Part shown: positions 1,457 through 64,000 of the stretch, one piece after another
Layout of the letters: every line of letters begins with the position of its first letter
Numbering within the stretch: position 1 is the first letter of the stretch
IMG/VR virus record: IMGVR_UViG_3300024518_000034
Span: 128,309-192,308 of that record
Strand: one strand, 5' to 3'
DNA: 64,000 nt
Source of the DNA: a virus
Translations under genes and position numbers: made by a program
Notes under the pieces: model-generated
What the model saw: the letters and a program-made list of their open reading frames with translations, nothing else
Told to the model about the DNA's origin: nothing
The model's database searches: none

Positions 1457-3245
1457 AAAGTTAGCGCAGTTTCCCCCTGAGGAAAACTATTTAGATCCAG
1501 ACGCTTATGTTCAACAATTGGAACCTCCGCAGCCAGTTGCACCAACTGACGTTCAGGAAAATATGAATTGCCCACATTGCGGGAGTATTTTCCCAACAAG
1601 TCGCTTAGAAAATGATCACGCGGTATGTGACAATTGCAATTATTATATTGAATTAAAATGTGATGATTGCGATAAAAATCTTCTCTTTGGAGAAGAAAGA
1701 AAAGATCCTTGGGGCAATGAAATATGTGAAGAATGTTTTGAAGGAAGTTATGTAGTATGTGTGAATTGTGAGGAAACGGTAAAAGAGGAGGACGAAAAGA
1801 AAGACGAAGATGGTGACTCGCTTTGCGAGGAATGTTTTTACGATAATTATACATACTGCGAGCCGTGCGGAGATGCTATAAAAATAGATGATGCAGCTTT
1901 TGTAGACGAAGATAGGTGGATGTGTAAAGAGTGTGCTAAAGATTTTTACTGTGATGAATGTATGGGATATAAAACAAACACGCAGGATCGTCAAATAGGT
2001 GAGGAAAATAAAAAACTATGTGATGAGTGTTTTATGTCGATGTGGGAAAATGGTGAAATAGCAACTTGTGACCAATGTCATGCTGTAGTTACAGGAGACA
2101 ACATTCACTATACAGAGGATGGATCTGAGTGTAATGAATGCTATGGAGGCAATGATAACATTAAAAGTTATTATGAATTAAAAGAGGCGGCAGAGGGGAA
2201 TCTTGAAACCCAAAGCGATTTGGAATATTACAAAGATATGTATCCTAACTTATTTAGTGTGTCGGAAGATTATAATAGGAAGAAAAAAAAGTCTTGGAAT
2301 TATATTCAAAAGTGGTCAGGCGGATTTGACTATGTTCCAGAAATGGATGTTGGAGTAACTAGACCATCTACTGATTATGAGGGAACATACATTGAGTTTG
2401 ATTTGTCAGTTAATGAAGGAGAAAGATTGGCAGAAAAAATAGGAATGGACGAAAGTCAAATGTGGGATGTGTTTAAAAGATGCAACGATTATCACCCATG
2501 TTTAGTAAGTTCAGACGCAGACAGAATGATAGTGTCCAGAGTTTTGGTGGATGATAACGGAGACTGGAATGTTAAACTAATGCAAGGTTCTATAAATCAA
2601 GAAGCAAAAGCAGAAATGTCAAGAATTGAGGATGAAATAAGAGGGGAAGAGCGCAAGTGTAGGGACTGCGGCGGTGGCGGGAAAAGTTATTCTTGGCGAG
2701 GAGGGCCGTGTAAAGCTTGTAATGGAAAAGGCGTCGTTAAGATTATTAATGAAGAACAATTGGAGGGGTGGGATAAAACGAGGGGAGAAGAGGAAGCGGA
2801 AAAGCTTTACCCAAAAGAATATGGAGGAGAAGATCCATTAAAAGGACTTGAAGAGAGGGGAAAAGACTATTATCTTAAACAGGACTTACAACAGAAAATG
2901 GAACAATTAGATAAAATTGTAAAACTAACAAATGGTGCATATATAGCAGCATATGATTGGATAAAGAACCTGGCTAAACAAAAAGGAAAAAAATGTTATG
3001 TAGAAGTGCCAGAAGGCCAAGCGCGTCAACATCCAAATGCACCTAAAATAAGTCTTGAAGTTATATATGGTGGAATACCATTTTTGATGGGATTTGAAAA
3101 AGAGAAAATTAAGAGGGAGTTAGAAGGTGAGGGAGAGAAAGGTGTGGAACAAAAAGGAAAATCAAGATATAGGATGGCTAAGGCAAACAATTGGGATTTT
3201 GAAGATATTGCAGATATGGCAATATTTGACCCTCTACTTAGATAG
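1380..3245 (+). CDS. large protein with many CxxC zinc-finger repeats and a DnaJ-like CxxCxGxG pair
   Basis: More than 12 CxxC motifs in aa 60-255, then CRDCGGGG...CKACNGKG. Confidence 0.75.
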   Translation: MRIRMGPDQRYLEVSEKTTDFHPLLKKLAQFPPEENYLDPDAYVQQLEPPQPVAPTDVQENMNCPHCGSIFPTSRLENDHAVCDNCNYYIELKCDDCDKNLLFGEERKDPWGNEICEECFEGSYVVCVNCEETVKEEDEKKDEDGDSLCEECFYDNYTYCEPCGDAIKIDDAAFVDEDRWMCKECAKDFYCDECMGYKTNTQDRQIGEENKKLCDECFMSMWENGEIATCDQCHAVVTGDNIHYTEDGSECNECYGGNDNIKSYYELKEAAEGNLETQSDLEYYKDMYPNLFSVSEDYNRKKKKSWNYIQKWSGGFDYVPEMDVGVTRPSTDYEGTYIEFDLSVNEGERLAEKIGMDESQMWDVFKRCNDYHPCLVSSDADRMIVSRVLVDDNGDWNVKLMQGSINQEAKAEMSRIEDEIRGEERKCRDCGGGGKSYSWRGGPCKACNGKGVVKIINEEQLEGWDKTRGEEEAEKLYPKEYGGEDPLKGLEERGKDYYLKQDLQQKMEQLDKIVKLTNGAYIAAYDWIKNLAKQKGKKCYVEVPEGQARQHPNAPKISLEVIYGGIPFLMGFEKEKIKRELEGEGEKGVEQKGKSRYRMAKANNWDFEDIADMAIFDPLLR

Positions 3246-37847: not shown

Positions 37848-37853
37848 TAATAT

Positions 37854-37932
37854 GGTGGGTAGCTTAAGGAAAAAAGCGCAGGGCTTATATATGCCCTGAA
37901 GTTGCTGGGTGGAATGCCTGGCCCCGTCACCA
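37854..37932 (+). tRNA. atypical tRNA (Ile(TAT)-like, enlarged anticodon loop)
   Basis: D arm GCTT/AAGC, CAGGGC-TTATATAT-GCCCTG, 6-bp acceptor plus 6-bp T stem, ends ACCA. Confidence 0.55.
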
Positions 37933-38316
37933 GGGACTGAAATAGGATCGACAGGATTCAAGACAATATTAGTGGCACGTAGTAGTTGGTGGAATGGCTA
38001 CTTTAAAAATCTACTAAAAAAAGTTTTAATTGACAACAACAATGTCATTTCTCTGAGTGATCGTCGCAAGGGTCGTAAGACTCGTGCGTTCGCTCGCCTA
38101 GCTGCTTAATTAACAGCCAGAGCCTGAAGCACGGACTCCGATACGTGTGGACGGTCGTATCGGATTGTTTGAATTTCTTATTTTATAAAACTTAAAACTT
38201 AAAAATAAGTGGTGGAGGCAAATGGTTGCTTGTTACCTAATTTAACAAGACAAACGTGTAGAAGCTATATTTGATGGATTACTGGACGCGGGATGCGATG
38301 CCCGCCAGTTCCACCA
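37933..38316 (+). ncRNA. ssrA: tmRNA
   Basis: GGGACTG/CAGTTCC-ACCA with G3-U70, 5' ...GGATCGAC, T arm GCGGG/CCCGC, internal tag ORF ending LAA*. Confidence 0.93.
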
Positions 38317-38514: not shown

Positions 38515-38671
38515 GCGAGGGTGTCGGAAGACACAAGTGGACTTAACATAAAAAAGCGTTCTTTTTATAATCTGCTCATTTATTTGAGTTACATTTTAAA
38601 AAGACTTTGAAAATATTTGTAAGGTTCGAAAGAGGACTACTGCTTGGCAGGTGAAAGCCCTGTCCCTCGCC
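38515..38671 (+). ncRNA. tRNA-like/Y-like RNA upstream of groES
   Basis: Own promoter (38465-93), GCGAGGG/CCCTCGC terminal stem, T-arm-like GCAGG-TGAAAGC-CCTGT. Confidence 0.5.
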
Positions 38672-38692
38672 ACACCTTTAAAAGGAGAATAT

Positions 38693-39004: not shown

Positions 39005-39046
39005 CCAAGTCGGCAGTAGGGCCGAATGAAGAAAGGGAGAATTATC

Positions 39047-40594
39047 ATGAATACAATCACAAAGAACGCGGCAGGCGGTGTAGCAATTCGTAAGAGCAAG
39101 GAAAACGCTCTAGCAACAATGGTGTGTACTGGCACTCAGAACGGAGCGTTCTATGCCGACGCAAGCAAGATCACTGATGTAATGAAAGCTCTAGCTCATC
39201 AGGTAAGTCCTGAAGCTCTTGCAAAGATTTTGGTCTACGGACGCAAGAAGGGGCACATGAAAGATCTGCCTGCTCTTGGTCTGGCAATTCTTGCAACCAA
39301 GGACAGCAAGCTATTTCGTAAGGTCGCACCTCACATTCTAGACAACAGCAAGATGTTGCGTAACTTCGTTAAGTATATGCGAGATGGATCAGTGGGACGT
39401 AAGTCTCTCGGTCACGCTGCAAAGAAGGCTGTACAGAGATGGTTTGATGCAAAGGATGCTAAGGGATTGTTCTATAATTCGATTGGTAACGATCCGTCAC
39501 TGGCAGACGTAATTCGTTTGGCGCATCCAAAGCCAAAAACTAAGGAAGCTGAAAATATGTTTGCTTACATTCTTGGAAGAGAATATAAGACTAACTTGCT
39601 TCCTGACAACGTGCAGGATTATGAAAGATACAAACAGTCTGATCGTCCAGGTGGACGAGCAGTTCCGAATGTTCCGTTTCAGATGTTGGACAGTCTAGGA
39701 TTGGACAAGGCTGGATGGATTCAGATTGCAGAAAGAGCAAGCTGGCAACAAACTAGAATGCTTTTGAACACTTTTGTTAGACATGGAGTATTTGAGAGTC
39801 ATGCAGGTATGGGTAAGATAATTGCAGATAGGTTGCGTAATCGTGATCTGATCGCTAAATCTAGAGTGTTTCCATATCAGTTGTTGGTAGCATTCAAGAA
39901 CGCAGAGGGTGTTCCACAAGAAGTATTGTTGGCATTGCAGGACGCTTTGGATATTGCATGTGAGAACATTCCAGAGATCGATGGAAAGGTGTACGTATTT
40001 CCTGACGTTTCAGGCTCAATGAGAAGTCCAGTGACTGGATATCGTTACGGTGGACAGAGAAGTTCGACTGTACGTTGTGTTGACGTGGCAGCATTGTTTG
40101 CAGCAGCGCTTTTGAAAAAGAACCCTGAAGCAATCGTTAGACCGTTTGATACTAAGGTGCATCGTCCTACGTTGAATCCTAGAGACAGCGTGATGACTCT
40201 TGCAGATAAGTTGGCTAGGTATGGTGGCGGTGGAACTAATTGCTCTCTTGCTATGCAGGAGTTAAATGGGGAAGTTACTAGAGATACTTCGGCAGTAATA
40301 TATATTTCAGACAGTGAGTCTTGGGCTGATATTGAAGGACGAAACAGATATTGGTATGGTGAATCTTCAACTGGTCTGATGGATGGCTGGAACGAGTTTA
40401 AGTCACGTAACCAAGAAGCTAAGTTGGTATGTATGGATATGCAGCCGTACACTACATCGCAGGCTGACGAGCATCGTAGAGATATTTTGCTAGTCGGTGG
40501 GTTCAGCGACAGAGTATTTGATGTTGTTGCTGACTACGTGAAGTATGGTGAACGTAACTGGATGGATATCATCAACCAAGAAGTTAATCTTTAA
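39047..40594 (+). CDS. rsr: Ro60/Rsr TROVE-domain RNA-binding protein with C-terminal vWA domain
   Basis: KDLPAL, MLRNFV, GRKSLG, NDPSLADVIRLAHPKP, VFPYQL, PDVSGSM, GGGTNCS, ISDSESW, GFSD. Start at ATG 39047. Confidence 0.93.
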   Translation: MNTITKNAAGGVAIRKSKENALATMVCTGTQNGAFYADASKITDVMKALAHQVSPEALAKILVYGRKKGHMKDLPALGLAILATKDSKLFRKVAPHILDNSKMLRNFVKYMRDGSVGRKSLGHAAKKAVQRWFDAKDAKGLFYNSIGNDPSLADVIRLAHPKPKTKEAENMFAYILGREYKTNLLPDNVQDYERYKQSDRPGGRAVPNVPFQMLDSLGLDKAGWIQIAERASWQQTRMLLNTFVRHGVFESHAGMGKIIADRLRNRDLIAKSRVFPYQLLVAFKNAEGVPQEVLLALQDALDIACENIPEIDGKVYVFPDVSGSMRSPVTGYRYGGQRSSTVRCVDVAALFAAALLKKNPEAIVRPFDTKVHRPTLNPRDSVMTLADKLARYGGGGTNCSLAMQELNGEVTRDTSAVIYISDSESWADIEGRNRYWYGESSTGLMDGWNEFKSRNQEAKLVCMDMQPYTTSQADEHRRDILLVGGFSDRVFDVVADYVKYGERNWMDIINQEVNL

Positions 40595-40892: not shown

Positions 40893-40964
40893 GGGGCGGT
40901 CAGTGGGCCTGGGTTGGACACTTGCAATGTCTGAAACGGAGTTCGATTCTCCGTCGCTCCACCA
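40893..40964 (+). tRNA. tRNA-Ala(TGC)
   Basis: G3-U70, loop CTTGCAA, encoded ACCA, short D arm. Confidence 0.85.
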
Positions 40965-50242: not shown

Positions 50243-50322
50243 GGTGGCTGAAGCTGAAGTAGCCGACGCACCCGGCTGTGAACCGGGAGTATTAGCGAGT
50301 GCAAGTCTCGTCAGTCACCCCA
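50243..50322 (+). tRNA. tRNA-His(GTG)
   Basis: G-1:C73, CCCGG-CTGTGAA-CCGGG, encoded CCA, own promoter (50197-50225). Confidence 0.88.
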
Positions 50323-62253: not shown

Positions 62254-62687
62254 TAGCAAATTATAAGTCTGATTGGTATTCTAAGTGAAGTAAGGAGGAA
62301 ACATGGAAGTTACGACTCTCTGTAGCTCAGGTTGAGAAAGTTTTGGAGCTACTGGAAAAGTAGTAGCAAAACAGTAGTCTGTTTGGTACTCTAAATAGAA
62401 CAAACAACCAACCAAGGAGGTGGAAAAATGCATGATCTGGCAACTATCAATCGTCTGAACAAGGAACACTCTGACAGGTATTTCAAGAACAAGCGAGAGC
62501 AGCAAGTTAAGCTCCTTAACACTCTTACTAAGCGTAAGGATGAGGATGAGGAGGTGATCGAGGATCTCAAGCGAAAGTTAGGATACTAGCAGTAAATGTA
62601 GCATGGCGGTCTACGGGACCATTGAAGAAGGGAAGGCAAGCAATCGGTGCTACCTTCCCAGCTTCCTTTTAATAAAGGAGAGACAAT

Positions 62688-63062: not shown

Positions 63063-63291
63063 AGATGTCTAATCTTAAGGAAATGCGTAAATCTCTTAAA
63101 GAAACCCTCGCACGCTTCAATGATAATGGTGGGCGAGGGGTGTGGGACGCTGAAGAGATTGACACCTTGCGTCAACAAATCAAAGAAGAAGTTAATCGTC
63201 GCCGCAGAGAAAAAAGAAAAAATCAGTAGCAAGATGGACTCCAAGAGGGTATTCTAAGTGAAGTAAGAAACCTGACCTAAAGGAGAGAGAG

Positions 63292-63642
63292 ATGGACAAG
63301 ACACAAGAGTGGGCAATCCCTCAAGGGCTGAGTGAGAAGGGCAGGCACGTTGCACAAGTCATCGCTTCCTTTATCAAGAAAAAGGAAAAGGAAAGGTGGG
63401 GGCGAGAAGCTAGCACTGGTGGATGTCGCACATTCTACAGTCCTCAAGAGTGGGCTGCTCGTGGAGAGCCGTATGGAACTGGTTCACTATTGATCGTGGT
63501 CTACGATGGTGGCGATGTTAAACCATACTTCAATATGGATCATGGCTGGCATCGAGTTGAAGAAATGAATGATGAGCTTCGCAAGGTCGGTGTGTTTGCT
63601 GAACCCGCCACATGCTGGTATGGAAGCATTTACGAGATTTAG
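63292..63642 (+). CDS. hypothetical protein
   Basis: Promoter plus RBS AAGGAG. Confidence 0.7.
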   Translation: MDKTQEWAIPQGLSEKGRHVAQVIASFIKKKEKERWGREASTGGCRTFYSPQEWAARGEPYGTGSLLIVVYDGGDVKPYFNMDHGWHRVEEMNDELRKVGVFAEPATCWYGSIYEI

Positions 63643-63863
63643 TCAAGTCTCAGGAAATCAAGCGCACCATGTCCATTGTGAACAAGGTCCAAGTATTTCC
63701 TGAGTATTTTTTAGTAGCAAAAGACAAGAGTTGTTGGTACTCTAAATAGAACAAGCAGCGACACGGTGTTCAGGCATCGCATTCTCATAGCCTAAATCGG
63801 GTTCATTGATATGGGGATTGAAGAGGACGACTACGCCTCTTGGTGGGAAGCCACGCTGCAATA

Positions 63864-63904
63864 GGGGAGGTAGTTTACAGGTGAAAACCCTGTCCTCTCC
63901 ACCA
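63864..63904 (+). ncRNA. alanine-identity tRNA minihelix/TLD within a larger structured RNA
   Basis: GGGGAGG/CCTCTCC with G3-U70, A73, CCA, and T arm ACAGG-TGAAAAC-CCTGT. Confidence 0.55.
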
Positions 63905-64000
63905 CCAAGATTACCGAGAGTATATAATCGGTCACTGCGTCTTGTAGCGCATCACAACGGAATCATTCTGCAAGCGTTCGCATCGGGGCGCAGTCCAGCG

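What the first reader, a model, noticed from the sequence alone, without database searches (positions are those of the whole stretch)
63750..63945. Promoter-driven structured RNA containing a perfect alanine-identity minihelix ending in CCA
Seen: 63864-63904 reads GGGGAGG-TAGTTT-ACAGG-TGAAAAC-CCTGT-CCTCTCC-ACCA, i.e. acceptor stem plus T arm with only 6 nt between them, G1-C72, G2-C71, G3-U70, A73 and encoded CCA. Upstream, GGGGATTGAAGAGGACGAC (63813) resembles a tmRNA 5' end, and GACTAC..CCTCT can pair with AGGGG..GTAGTT, giving an alternative 92-nt mini-tmRNA fold with no mRNA-like domain. A family promoter (63715-43) would start transcription near 63750, and ACAA-GCAG-CGAC there can pair with 63930-44. 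Established: G3-U70 is the major AlaRS determinant and minihelices carrying it are aminoacylated in vitro. Inference: an Ala-chargeable tRNA mimic expressed early, for example a tagless tmRNA/SmpB decoy or an Ala donor.
Basis: partly seen in the sequence, partly recalled or inferred. Interest (0 to 1): 0.76.

Follow-up and report, generated by a model that had tools for sequence, protein, structure and literature searches.

The report
Stripped-down Ro60-type tRNA mimic in phage leader
The alanine-type RNA minihelix is real and sits behind a phage early promoter, but it is the leftover core of a larger tRNA-shaped RNA family that elsewhere lies next to Ro60 genes; it is not a tmRNA, and whether it is ever charged with alanine is untested.

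Summary
Window 63864-63904 is a perfect 7-bp acceptor stem plus 5-bp T arm ending in ACCA, with A73, G2-C71, G3.U70 and G4-C69. It follows a member of the phage's early promoter family.

Three things change the picture.
- The window end and the contig start are one locus of a circular or permuted 192-kb marine phage. A second allele carries 27 more bases inside the element, giving a 68-nt cloverleaf-like form.
- The nearest relative (67% identity in the flanking protein) lacks the whole module. It keeps only the leader after the CCA.
- The ends of the element match a covarying family of 107-143-nt tRNA-shaped RNAs with a T loop of type UGNAANY. I found no Rfam match. In five Verrucomicrobiota genomes these RNAs lie directly upstream of Ro60 (TROVE) genes. 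This phage encodes Ro60 and has a paralogue in the groES-Ro60 leader.

So this is a Y-RNA-like tRNA mimic that has lost its middle. In 13 of the 14 other members used for the model, pair 3-70 is A-U, so G3.U70 is one transition away.

The most likely role is a handle for tRNA-processing enzymes in the early leader. A relic or a true alanine acceptor remain possible. The tmRNA reading is not supported.

Earlier scan notes cover the duplicate copy (e1-5856948) and a similar Ro60-linked family on other DNA (e1-4037503).

The parts
63649..63711 (+). Long hairpin (CTCAGGAAAT ... ATTTCCTGAG) followed by TATTTTTT. Probable end of the upstream transcription unit.
   Evidence: Read directly. The simple terminator scan does not flag it because the loop is too long, so this is inference.
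63712..63743 (+). Early-family promoter: TAGTAGCAA box (-35-like TAGCAA 63715-20), 17-nt spacer, extended -10 TGG-TACTCT (63735-43).
   Evidence: Family of about 20 near-identical sites on the + strand of the early region. The relative L075 shares the family.
63750..63863 (+). 5' leader domain: predicted multi-hairpin fold closed by GCAGC (63755-59) / GCUGC (63855-59). Its relation to the tRNA-like family is not shown.
   Evidence: MFE -38.6 kcal/mol, z -2.75 against shuffles. No match to model R1 with filters off. Absent from relative L075.
63812..63812 (+). SNP between the two copies of the locus: A here, G at the contig start.
   Evidence: Alignment.
63820..63826 (+). GAAGAGG, an alternative distal 5' partner of the acceptor 3' strand (6 of 7 pairs). 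The family model chooses it.
   Evidence: R2 alignment. Constrained folding puts this fold 10 kcal/mol above the minihelix fold.
63864..63904 (+). 41-nt minihelix (short allele): acceptor 5' strand 63864-70, linker 63871-76, T arm 63877-93 (T loop UGAAAAC), acceptor 3' strand 63894-900, ACCA 63901-04.
   Evidence: Logan contigs of two seawater runs carry exactly this form. Model R2, built without it, matches at E 2e-4 (short) and 7e-6 (long).
63876..63877 (+). Site of the 27-nt indel. The long allele (L002:161-228, 68 nt) adds a D-arm remnant and a 17-nt hairpin that contains CACGAAG.
63906..64000 (+). Start of a conserved 5' leader. It runs on at the contig start (L002:325-372) to the ATG of a 51-aa ORF (L002:373-528). 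This is the only part of the locus shared with the nearest relative.
   Evidence: nhmmer E 9.5e-25 and blastn 85.5% identity to L075:5534-5669. Consensus fold of 32 pairs, 2 of them compensatory.
38515..38674 (+). Paralogue in the groES-Ro60 leader: 5' strand GCGAGGG, about 125-nt middle, T arm GCAGG-UGAAAGC-CCUGU, 3' strand CCCUCGC, then CACA (no CCA).
   Evidence: The 18-nt T-arm match has 1 mismatch. Sequence, fold. GroES = Cpn10 at 93.6 bits.
39026..40594 (+). Phage Ro60 (Rsr) homologue.
   Evidence: Pfam vWA_Ro60 40.2 bits and TROVE 30.8 bits, both above cut-off.

Best explanation
The element is the reduced core of a tRNA-shaped, Y-RNA-like RNA. The parent family has a 7-bp acceptor stem, a D arm, a 50-80-nt structured domain where the anticodon loop would be, a T arm with a UGNAANY T loop, and usually NCCA. 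In Verrucomicrobiota it lies directly upstream of Ro60 genes.

In this phage one copy sits in the leader of an early transcript and has lost the middle. A 68-nt allele keeps a D-arm remnant and one small hairpin. A 41-nt allele keeps only the 12-bp acceptor/T stack and ACCA.

Inferred mechanism. The early promoter starts transcription near 63750. The minihelix folds. RNase P cuts between 63863 and 63864, and the 3' side is trimmed to the encoded CCA. This would split the primary transcript into three pieces:
- a 114-nt structured 5' piece;
- a stable CCA-ended minihelix;
- the mRNA of a small ORF with its conserved leader.

The alanine identity set is present, so the free minihelix could be charged. 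It most likely arose from one A3-to-G change and need not be the selected function.

Shown: sequence, fold prediction, promoter family, two alleles, family membership, the Ro60 linkage of the family.
Inferred: transcription, cleavage, end formation, any charging.
For: One locus, two alleles.
- The window end equals the contig start apart from 1 SNP and 27 nt.
- Logan contigs of two runs run through the junction with the short form.
- The relative L075 is collinear across the junction.

Family membership.
- A 28-nt 3' half is identical at 27 positions to L155:986-1013.
- Full-length alignment to that member scores 54, against shuffles of 17+-3 (0 of 1000 reach it).
- The 5' end GGGGAGG-TAGTTTAA matches the family's GRAGGGG-TAGYTTAA.
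- Model R2, built without this locus, scores 35.1 bits (E 7e-6) on the long allele and 29.1 bits (E 2e-4) on the short one.

The family structure is real.
- 96-99% of cells are paired. 10 of 12 and 13 of 16 pairs show changes on both sides. 0 of 500 shuffles reach this, and the slid controls reach only 45-59%.

Ro60 link.
- All 5 Verrucomicrobiota genomes with the RNA have a TROVE gene 300-600 nt downstream on the same strand.
- TROVE occurs in only 8 of the 61 genomes searched.
- The phage has Ro60 and a paralogue with the same T arm just upstream of groES-Ro60.

The minihelix fold dominates: pair probability 0.97, and it is 10 kcal/mol better than the long fold.

Precedent. M. smegmatis YrlA, a Y RNA with a 7-bp acceptor stem, is cut by RNase P and receives CCA in vivo (PMC4201824).

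Indel position. Both alleles keep the 12-bp stack and the ACCA intact, although the indel lies in the middle of the element.
Against: - No RNA data: no RNA run was available, so transcription, the RNase P cut and the CCA end are all untested.
- The nearest relative lacks the module. The element is also polymorphic for a 27-nt indel. Both fit a dispensable relic as well.
- The T loop lacks U55 and C56, so recognition by enzymes that read the tRNA elbow is uncertain.
- The phage genomes that hold other family members (G002, G005) have no TROVE gene. The Ro60 link is therefore shown for bacteria and for this phage only.
- This copy lies 23 kb from the phage Ro60 gene.
- R2 aligns the distal 5' strand (63820-26), not the proximal one, so the homologous fold is ambiguous.
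- 5' strands of some family members were located by searching for pairing. That inflates the acceptor-stem covariation somewhat.
Confidence: 0.45

Rival explanations
1. Decaying relic. A tRNA-like / Y-like gene copy landed in this leader and is being whittled away by deletions (about 130 nt, then 68, then 41). The minihelix and its alanine marks have no function.
For: - The module is absent from the nearest relative, while the leader after it is 85% conserved.
- A 27-nt indel is polymorphic, and the shorter form is the one in two Logan assemblies.
- The middle domain, conserved in Ro60-linked members, is gone.
- The A3-U70 pair seen in 13 of 13 aligned members is changed.
Against: - The 3' 28 nt are 27/28 identical to a copy in a Verrucomicrobiota genome, although everything between the ends differs. 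Free drift would not leave that.
- Both alleles keep a flawless 12-bp stack and ACCA.
- The deletion removes only the interior. The new junction base restores an A-U pair in the T stem.
Confidence: 0.28
2. The processed minihelix is charged by host AlaRS and acts as such, for example as an alanine donor, an AlaRS or EF-Tu sink, or a protected 3' end.
For: - All acceptor-stem alanine determinants listed for bacteria (A73, G2-C71, G3.U70, G4-C69) are present, plus CCA.
- Alanine minihelices are charged in vitro (Francklyn and Schimmel 1989, cited in PMC9976931).
- None of 40 genome shuffles gives such an element.
- Chen et al. raised aminoacylation as a possible protection of an RNase P-cut, CCA-tailed Y RNA.
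- G3.U70 departs from the family's A3-U70, which could be a gain of function.
Against: - One A-to-G transition in a GGAGAGG/CCUCUCC-A acceptor creates the whole set. That acceptor occurs in family members L155B and L182.
- The paralogue in the same phage has G3-C70 and no CCA.
- The phage already has a tmRNA and a tRNA-Ala-like gene with G3.U70.
- There is no partner gene, no conservation of this version in the relative, and no data on ends or charging.
Confidence: 0.12
3. The functional form is the long, family-like fold. GAAGAGG (63820-26) pairs with the acceptor 3' strand, and GACUAC-CCUCU pairs with AGGGG-GUAGUU. This would give an 85- or 112-nt Y-like RNA that binds the phage Ro60.
For: - The independent family model chooses this alignment.
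- It restores the family's A3-U70.
- CUCUUG-GUGGGAAGCC loosely resembles the family's conserved CCUUG-CUCGGGCAACC hairpin.
Against: - It is 10 kcal/mol less stable than the minihelix fold in both alleles and has about zero ensemble probability.
- It has an A.C mismatch at pair 2-71.
- Posterior probabilities in the middle of the alignment are low.
- It lacks the family's UAGYUUAA D-arm start, which the proximal strand has.
Confidence: 0.1
4. Tagless mini-tmRNA acting on SmpB or stalled ribosomes.
For: - G3.U70, A73 and CCA are shared with tmRNA.
- GGGGAUUGAAGAGGACGAC loosely resembles the phage tmRNA 5' end.
Against: - No tmRNA call by ARAGORN or Rfam at E<=10.
- The similarity is within chance (28 of 500 shuffles).
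- The fold is disfavoured.
- The element's relatives are Ro60-linked RNAs.
Confidence: 0.02

Closest known systems
YrlA-type bacterial and phage Y RNAs (Rfam RF02553; Chen et al. 2014, PMC4201824)
   Same: Non-coding tRNA mimics encoded next to Ro60/Rsr on the same strand. They have acceptor-like, D and T arms. Some Y-locus RNAs have T arms without U55 (D. radiodurans RNA a). This phage encodes Ro60.
   Different: - YrlA has its 5' and 3' ends in the Ro-binding stem and a closed acceptor-like stem. The family here has ordinary tRNA topology, with ends at the acceptor stem and NCCA.
- The T loop here is UGNAANY, not UUCRANY.
- No match to RF02553.
- The element in question has lost the middle domain and lies 23 kb from rsr.
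M. smegmatis YrlA after processing (Chen et al. 2014)
   Same: A Y RNA whose 7-bp acceptor stem makes it an RNase P substrate and a CCA-addition substrate in vivo. That is the processing proposed here.
   Different: There the two halves stay bound to Rsr, and the CCA is added rather than encoded. Here there is no Ro-binding part and no experiment.
tRNA-Ala acceptor/T-arm minihelix (Francklyn and Schimmel 1989; identity set in PMC9976931)
   Same: A 12-bp acceptor/T stack with G3.U70, A73, G2-C71, G4-C69 and CCA.
   Different: The classical minihelix is a laboratory construct with a UUCG-type T loop and no linker. This one is genomic, has a 6-nt linker and a UGAAAAC loop, and is untested.
tmRNA tRNA-like domain (RF00023)
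   Same: G3.U70, A73, CCA. The phage has a real tmRNA at window 37933-38316.
   Different: No D-loop analogue, no P2 helix or pseudoknots, no tag frame, and no model match.
Phage T4 stable RNAs C and D (rnaC, rnaD; AF158101 70908-71171)
   Same: Small stable phage RNAs of unknown function, encoded with tRNAs. rnaC ends in a T arm followed by an acceptor-type 3' strand.
   Different: rnaC has a canonical UUCGAAU T loop. There is no sequence similarity, no R1 match to rnaC/rnaD in the T4 locus (only a weak R2 match, 16 bits, on the neighbouring tRNA-Ser), and no Ro60 in T4.
tRNA-like processing signals in messages (plant mitochondrial t-elements, mascRNA)
   Same: An acceptor/T-arm mimic inside a longer transcript that recruits RNase P and 3' processing to define RNA ends.
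   Different: Those are organellar or nuclear systems. This comparison rests on my own knowledge and was not tested here.

Membership tests
tRNA (RF00005) | Cloverleaf with a 7-nt anticodon loop, recognised by tRNA models | tested here: not met
   ARAGORN finds nothing at either allele at default settings. Rfam gives no match at E<=10. At 80% threshold ARAGORN gives only a weak 90-nt class-II-like call at 63811-63900.
tmRNA (RF00023) | tRNA-like domain plus tag reading frame and pseudoknots; model match | tested here: not met
   No ARAGORN or Rfam match. 5' similarity to the phage tmRNA is within chance. The long fold is disfavoured by 10 kcal/mol.
YrlA Y RNA (RF02553) | Match to the YrlA model, with termini in the Ro-binding stem | tested here: not met
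   No RF02553 match at the locus or at family members. The topology is that of a tRNA.
YrlA Y RNA (RF02553) | Encoded within about 4 kb of Ro60 on the same strand (criterion of Chen et al. 2014) | tested here: not met
   Ro60 is at window 39026-40594 and the element at 63864, about 23 kb away. The paralogue at 38515-38674 does meet the criterion.
   Perfect 7+5 pairs here. Family covariation.
   UGAAAAC and ACCA here. Family table.
   R2 gives 35.1 bits (E 7e-6) on the long allele and 29.1 bits (E 2e-4) on the short one. E-values are rough, and the model chose the distal 5' strand.
   The long allele keeps only UAGUUUAA plus a 17-nt hairpin. The short allele keeps neither. I therefore file it as a truncated derivative, not a full member.
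   G3.U70 here.
Alanine-accepting minihelix | A73, G2-C71, G3.U70, G4-C69, free CCA end | tested here: met
   The sequence determinants are present. A free CCA end is not shown.
Alanine-accepting minihelix | Aminoacylation by AlaRS | not testable with these tools
   Needs an in vitro charging assay.

The most novel reading that the evidence does not exclude
A phage has turned a Ro60-type Y RNA into a natural, genetically encoded alanine minihelix. Internal deletions removed everything except the 12-bp acceptor/T stack, and an A3-to-G change created G3.U70. The host would then process and alanylate a 41-nt RNA early in infection. That RNA could protect itself by charging, or draw on AlaRS, EF-Tu or alanine. 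This would be the first natural counterpart of the classical minihelix-Ala substrate.
Probability: 0.1. Interest if true: 0.85.

Novelty: new variant of a known kind. Interest (0 to 1): 0.55.

Why it matters
If the processing model holds, phages reuse the tRNA-like half of Y RNAs as portable RNA-end-defining modules in early messages.

The comparison also brought up what looks like an undescribed architecture of Ro60-associated RNA:
- it has ordinary tRNA topology;
- its T loop lacks U55/C56;
- a large domain replaces the anticodon loop.

It has no match in Rfam 15, and I found no paper on it. That gives Ro60/Y-RNA researchers a new set of candidate partners in Verrucomicrobiota and large phages.

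The two co-existing alleles (68 and 41 nt) are a natural deletion series. They show which part of the RNA is kept.

The alanine identity set makes a cheap and decisive bench test possible.

Tried and rejected
- blastn of the locus against GenBank phages: no match.
- Exact T-arm-to-CCA pattern in IMG/VR: 0 hits.
- GGGGAGG-N6-36-CCTCTCCACCA in IMG/VR: 64 hits, none homologous. The recurrent 8-nt-loop hairpins lie in a conserved reading frame (G-E-x-x-x-P-L-H) and are coding.
- Promoter-family pattern in IMG/VR: 0 hits.
- GroES relatives in IMG/VR: none.
- The genome search on the metagenome loci L075-L078: records not held.
- Sequencing runs: no RNA holder listed. X3 covers only up to 63780 and X4 did not lay, so only two (possibly source) runs inform on the allele.
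- Similarity of the module to the phage tmRNA: not significant.
- Similarity of the 5' domain (63750-63863) to the groES-leader element: 59 of 1000 shuffles as good. R1 with filters off finds no second family copy in 63700-63863. The idea of a tandem degenerate copy is dropped.
- The 27-nt insert has no other copy in the genome or the loci, and no flanking microhomology.
- The interior of the long allele against the interior of L155B: no significant similarity.
- ORF 63806 to L002:354 (TTG start; the 27-nt indel is in frame): rejected as coding. The conserved part shows 1-nt indels against L075, and Pfam finds nothing in the neighbouring small ORFs.
- A GNCGAA-type Ro-binding motif: only loose look-alikes (CACGAAG in the long allele), so not claimed.
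- Literature search for tRNA-topology Ro60-linked RNAs: nothing found in the library searched.

Full report
**1. The observation**

It has a 7-bp acceptor stem GGGGAGG/CCUCUCC with G3.U70, a 6-nt linker, a 5-bp T stem ACAGG/CCUGU with loop UGAAAAC, then ACCA.

Folded alone it gives the minihelix at -16.2 kcal/mol. Folded inside the whole leader, the acceptor pairs have probability 0.97-0.98.

The bare shape is not rare:
- 58 such 7+5 stacks with a short linker occur in the 192-kb genome, against 38+-6 in dinucleotide shuffles.
- With NCCA there are only 3, against 0.5 expected.
- With the alanine set, none arose in 40 shuffles.

The bacterial alanine determinants listed in PMC9976931 are A73, G2-C71, G3.U70 and G4-C69. 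All are present.

**2. The promoter**

TAGCAA (63715-20), a 17-nt spacer, then TGG-TACTCT (63735-43) belongs to a family of about 20 sites. They share the consensus GTAGTAGCAA-N15-GGTATTCTAAGTG. All lie on the + strand, at contig 0-4.7 kb and 165-192 kb.

The generic sigma-70 scan does not see these sites. A long hairpin followed by a T-run precedes the promoter. Transcription from about 63750 is therefore a reasonable inference, but it is not shown.

**3. The window edge**

The window is the last 64 kb of a 192,308-bp IMG/VR record. Its last 297 bases recur at the start of the record with one SNP and a 27-nt insertion.

This is one locus of a circular or permuted genome:
- Logan contigs of two seawater runs (depth 26 and 22) cover 63200-64000 without any difference. 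That of X1 carries a loose end matching the sequence at the contig start (L002:574), and both extend beyond the stretch.
- The relative L075 is collinear across the junction.

The locus therefore has two alleles:
- The long allele (L002:161-228, 68 nt) has the extra 27 nt exactly between the linker and the T stem. It folds into a small cloverleaf-like shape.

Neither allele is called by ARAGORN or matches any Rfam family at E<=10.

**4. The nearest relative**

The flanking 116-aa ORF has a 67% identical homologue on metagenome contigs L075-L077.

In those contigs the roughly 140 nt after the CCA, up to the start of a conserved 51-aa ORF, are 85% identical to this phage. They fold into a shared structure with two compensatory pairs.

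Everything from the promoter -10 to the CCA is missing in them. That includes the 114-nt 5' domain and the minihelix. The module is thus lineage-specific and dispensable in the sister lineage.

**5. What the element is related to**

Within the genome, the T arm recurs with one mismatch in 18 nt at window 38647-63. That copy sits in the leader of groES, just upstream of the phage Ro60 gene. There it is followed by CCCUCGC, which pairs perfectly with GCGAGGG 125 nt upstream. It has no CCA.

A scan of 185,579 species genomes for the T loop plus acceptor 3' strand gave one hit, in a Verrucomicrobiota MAG. There, 27 of 28 bases match, and the 5' strand GGAGAGG lies 96 nt upstream.

A looser pattern in IMG/VR, followed by two covariance models, defined a family of 107-143-nt RNAs. 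Its features are:
- a 7-bp acceptor stem;
- a UAGYUUAA-type D arm;
- a 50-80-nt structured middle in place of the anticodon loop;
- a small hairpin;
- a T arm with loop UGNAANY;
- usually NCCA.

The stems covary strongly: 96-99% of cells are paired, 10 of 12 and 13 of 16 pairs change on both sides, 0 of 500 shuffles reach this, and the slid controls reach 45-59%. One caveat applies: some 5' strands were located by looking for pairing. No member matches Rfam at E<=1.

**6. The Ro60 link**

Model R1 found the RNA in 6 of the 61 genomes searched (the MAG and 60 relatives). One of these, G042, is an ordinary tRNA, which leaves five. In all five remaining genomes, a TROVE gene of 129-147 bits lies 300-600 nt downstream on the same strand.

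TROVE occurs in only 8 of the 61 genomes. Two of the other three TROVE genes lie near the low-numbered end of their contigs (G024 with 166 nt of upstream sequence; for G026 contig length was not checked).

By the operational criterion of Chen et al. 2014 (near Ro60, same strand), these are candidate Y RNAs. They have ordinary tRNA topology, however, not the permuted YrlA topology.

The phage records that hold other members have no TROVE gene. The link is therefore shown for the bacteria and for this phage only.

**7. Membership of the element**

Model R2 was built from 14 members without this locus. It scores the long allele at 35.1 bits (E 7e-6) and the short allele at 29.1 bits (E 2e-4).

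Both ends of the long allele match the family:
- the 5' GGGGAGG-UAGUUUAA;
- the 3' CGAAGAU-GCAGG-UGAAAAC-CCUGU-CCUCUCC-ACCA.

The middle is absent. I read this as a deletion series of about 130, then 68, then 41 nt, in which only the acceptor/T stack and ACCA survive.

The D-arm motif GUUUA|AAC runs across the indel boundary. This weakly favours the long allele as the older one.

R2 itself pairs the 3' strand with a distal GAAGAGG (63820-26). This fold is 10 kcal/mol worse in both alleles, has an A.C mismatch, and lacks the D-arm start. I keep it as a minor rival.

**8. The alanine marks**

In the 13 members with letters at that pair, 3-70 is A-U. Two members (L155B, L182) have the acceptor GGAGAGG/CCUCUCC with A73. 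One A-to-G transition therefore produces the full alanine set.

The paralogue in this phage has G3-C70 and no CCA.

The marks are real, and the free minihelix should be a plausible AlaRS substrate by established rules. But they need not have been selected. The departure from an otherwise constant pair can be read either as relaxed constraint or as a gain.

**9. tmRNA**

The phage has a genuine tmRNA (37933-38316). The 5' similarity of the module to it is within chance, no model matches, and the relatives are Ro60-linked. The decoy idea is not supported.

**10. Mechanism and odds**

The best-supported working model (0.45) treats the minihelix as a handle for tRNA-processing enzymes in an early leader. 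RNase P would cut at 63863/63864 and the 3' side would be trimmed to the encoded CCA.

The rivals are:
- a functionless relic (0.28);
- a true alanine acceptor (0.12);
- the long Ro60-binding fold (0.10);
- a tagless tmRNA (0.02).

That the element derives from the family I hold at about 0.85.

**11. Earlier notes of this scan**

- e1-5856948 covers the duplicate copy and calls such elements anticodon-less tRNA mimics in leaders. I confirmed one of its conserved elements, with compensatory changes, in L075.
- e1-4037503 described Ro60-linked tRNA-like genes on other DNA. It prompted the TROVE test, which I ran independently.

Noticed in passing
window 40893-40964: A 72-nt tRNA-Ala(UGC)-like gene that ARAGORN and Rfam did not call. 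It has acceptor GGGGCGG/UCGCUCC with G3.U70, A73, encoded CCA, a canonical UUCGAUU T loop, anticodon loop CUUGCAA and a shortened D region.
   Followed up: partly
window 50244-50322: A 79-nt tRNA-His-like gene, also not called by the tools. It has anticodon loop CUGUGAA, tail CCCA and a T loop UGCAAGU of the same unusual type as the Ro60-linked family.
   Followed up: partly
window 37853-37932: An 80-nt tRNA-shaped RNA ending in CCA directly in front of the tmRNA. Its D arm UAGCUUAA...AAAGCG matches the Verrucomicrobiota family consensus. It has an 8-nt anticodon-type loop and gives weak R1/R2 matches (17 bits).
   Followed up: partly
window 63906-64000 plus L002:325-372: A conserved 140-nt leader in front of a 51-aa Cys/His-rich ORF with an N-terminal hydrophobic stretch. 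It is 85% identical to the relative, which is more than the neighbouring coding sequence. It is closed by an AAGAUU/AAUCUU helix and has no Rfam match.
   Followed up: partly
L078:5630-5749: A freshwater phage contig has a canonical TTGACA-17-TATGAT promoter 11 nt in front of a 78-nt tRNA mimic. The mimic has a sealed anticodon hairpin (GCAA loop), T loop UGAAAAU and an ACCA end.
   Followed up: partly
L155:1-1300 (Verrucomicrobiota MAG JBEGSF010000001.1): A dense array of seven tRNA genes, two 131-132-nt Y-like RNAs and two further weak tRNA-like matches, directly upstream of the Ro60 gene.
   Followed up: partly
L157:3450-3950: In a 37-kb phage record a family member sits between a cspA-like gene (Rfam cspA thermoregulator match, 67.7 bits, below threshold) and the next ORF's ribosome-binding site. 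It has a 4-bp hairpin with loop GUCAUAA (CAU in anticodon position).
   Followed up: no
contig 2958-3031 and L075:10113-10181: A leader tRNA-like element with a canonical UUCAAUU T loop. It is conserved between the phage and its relative, with compensatory acceptor changes (GATTCCG/CGGAATC against GGTTCTG/CGGAACC).
   Followed up: partly
window 62383-62420 and 63735-63760: Two early promoters share an identical 21-nt -10/start region (TTGGTACTCTAAATAGAACAA) and then diverge. This hints at promoter-mediated recombination as the way such leader modules are swapped.
   Followed up: no
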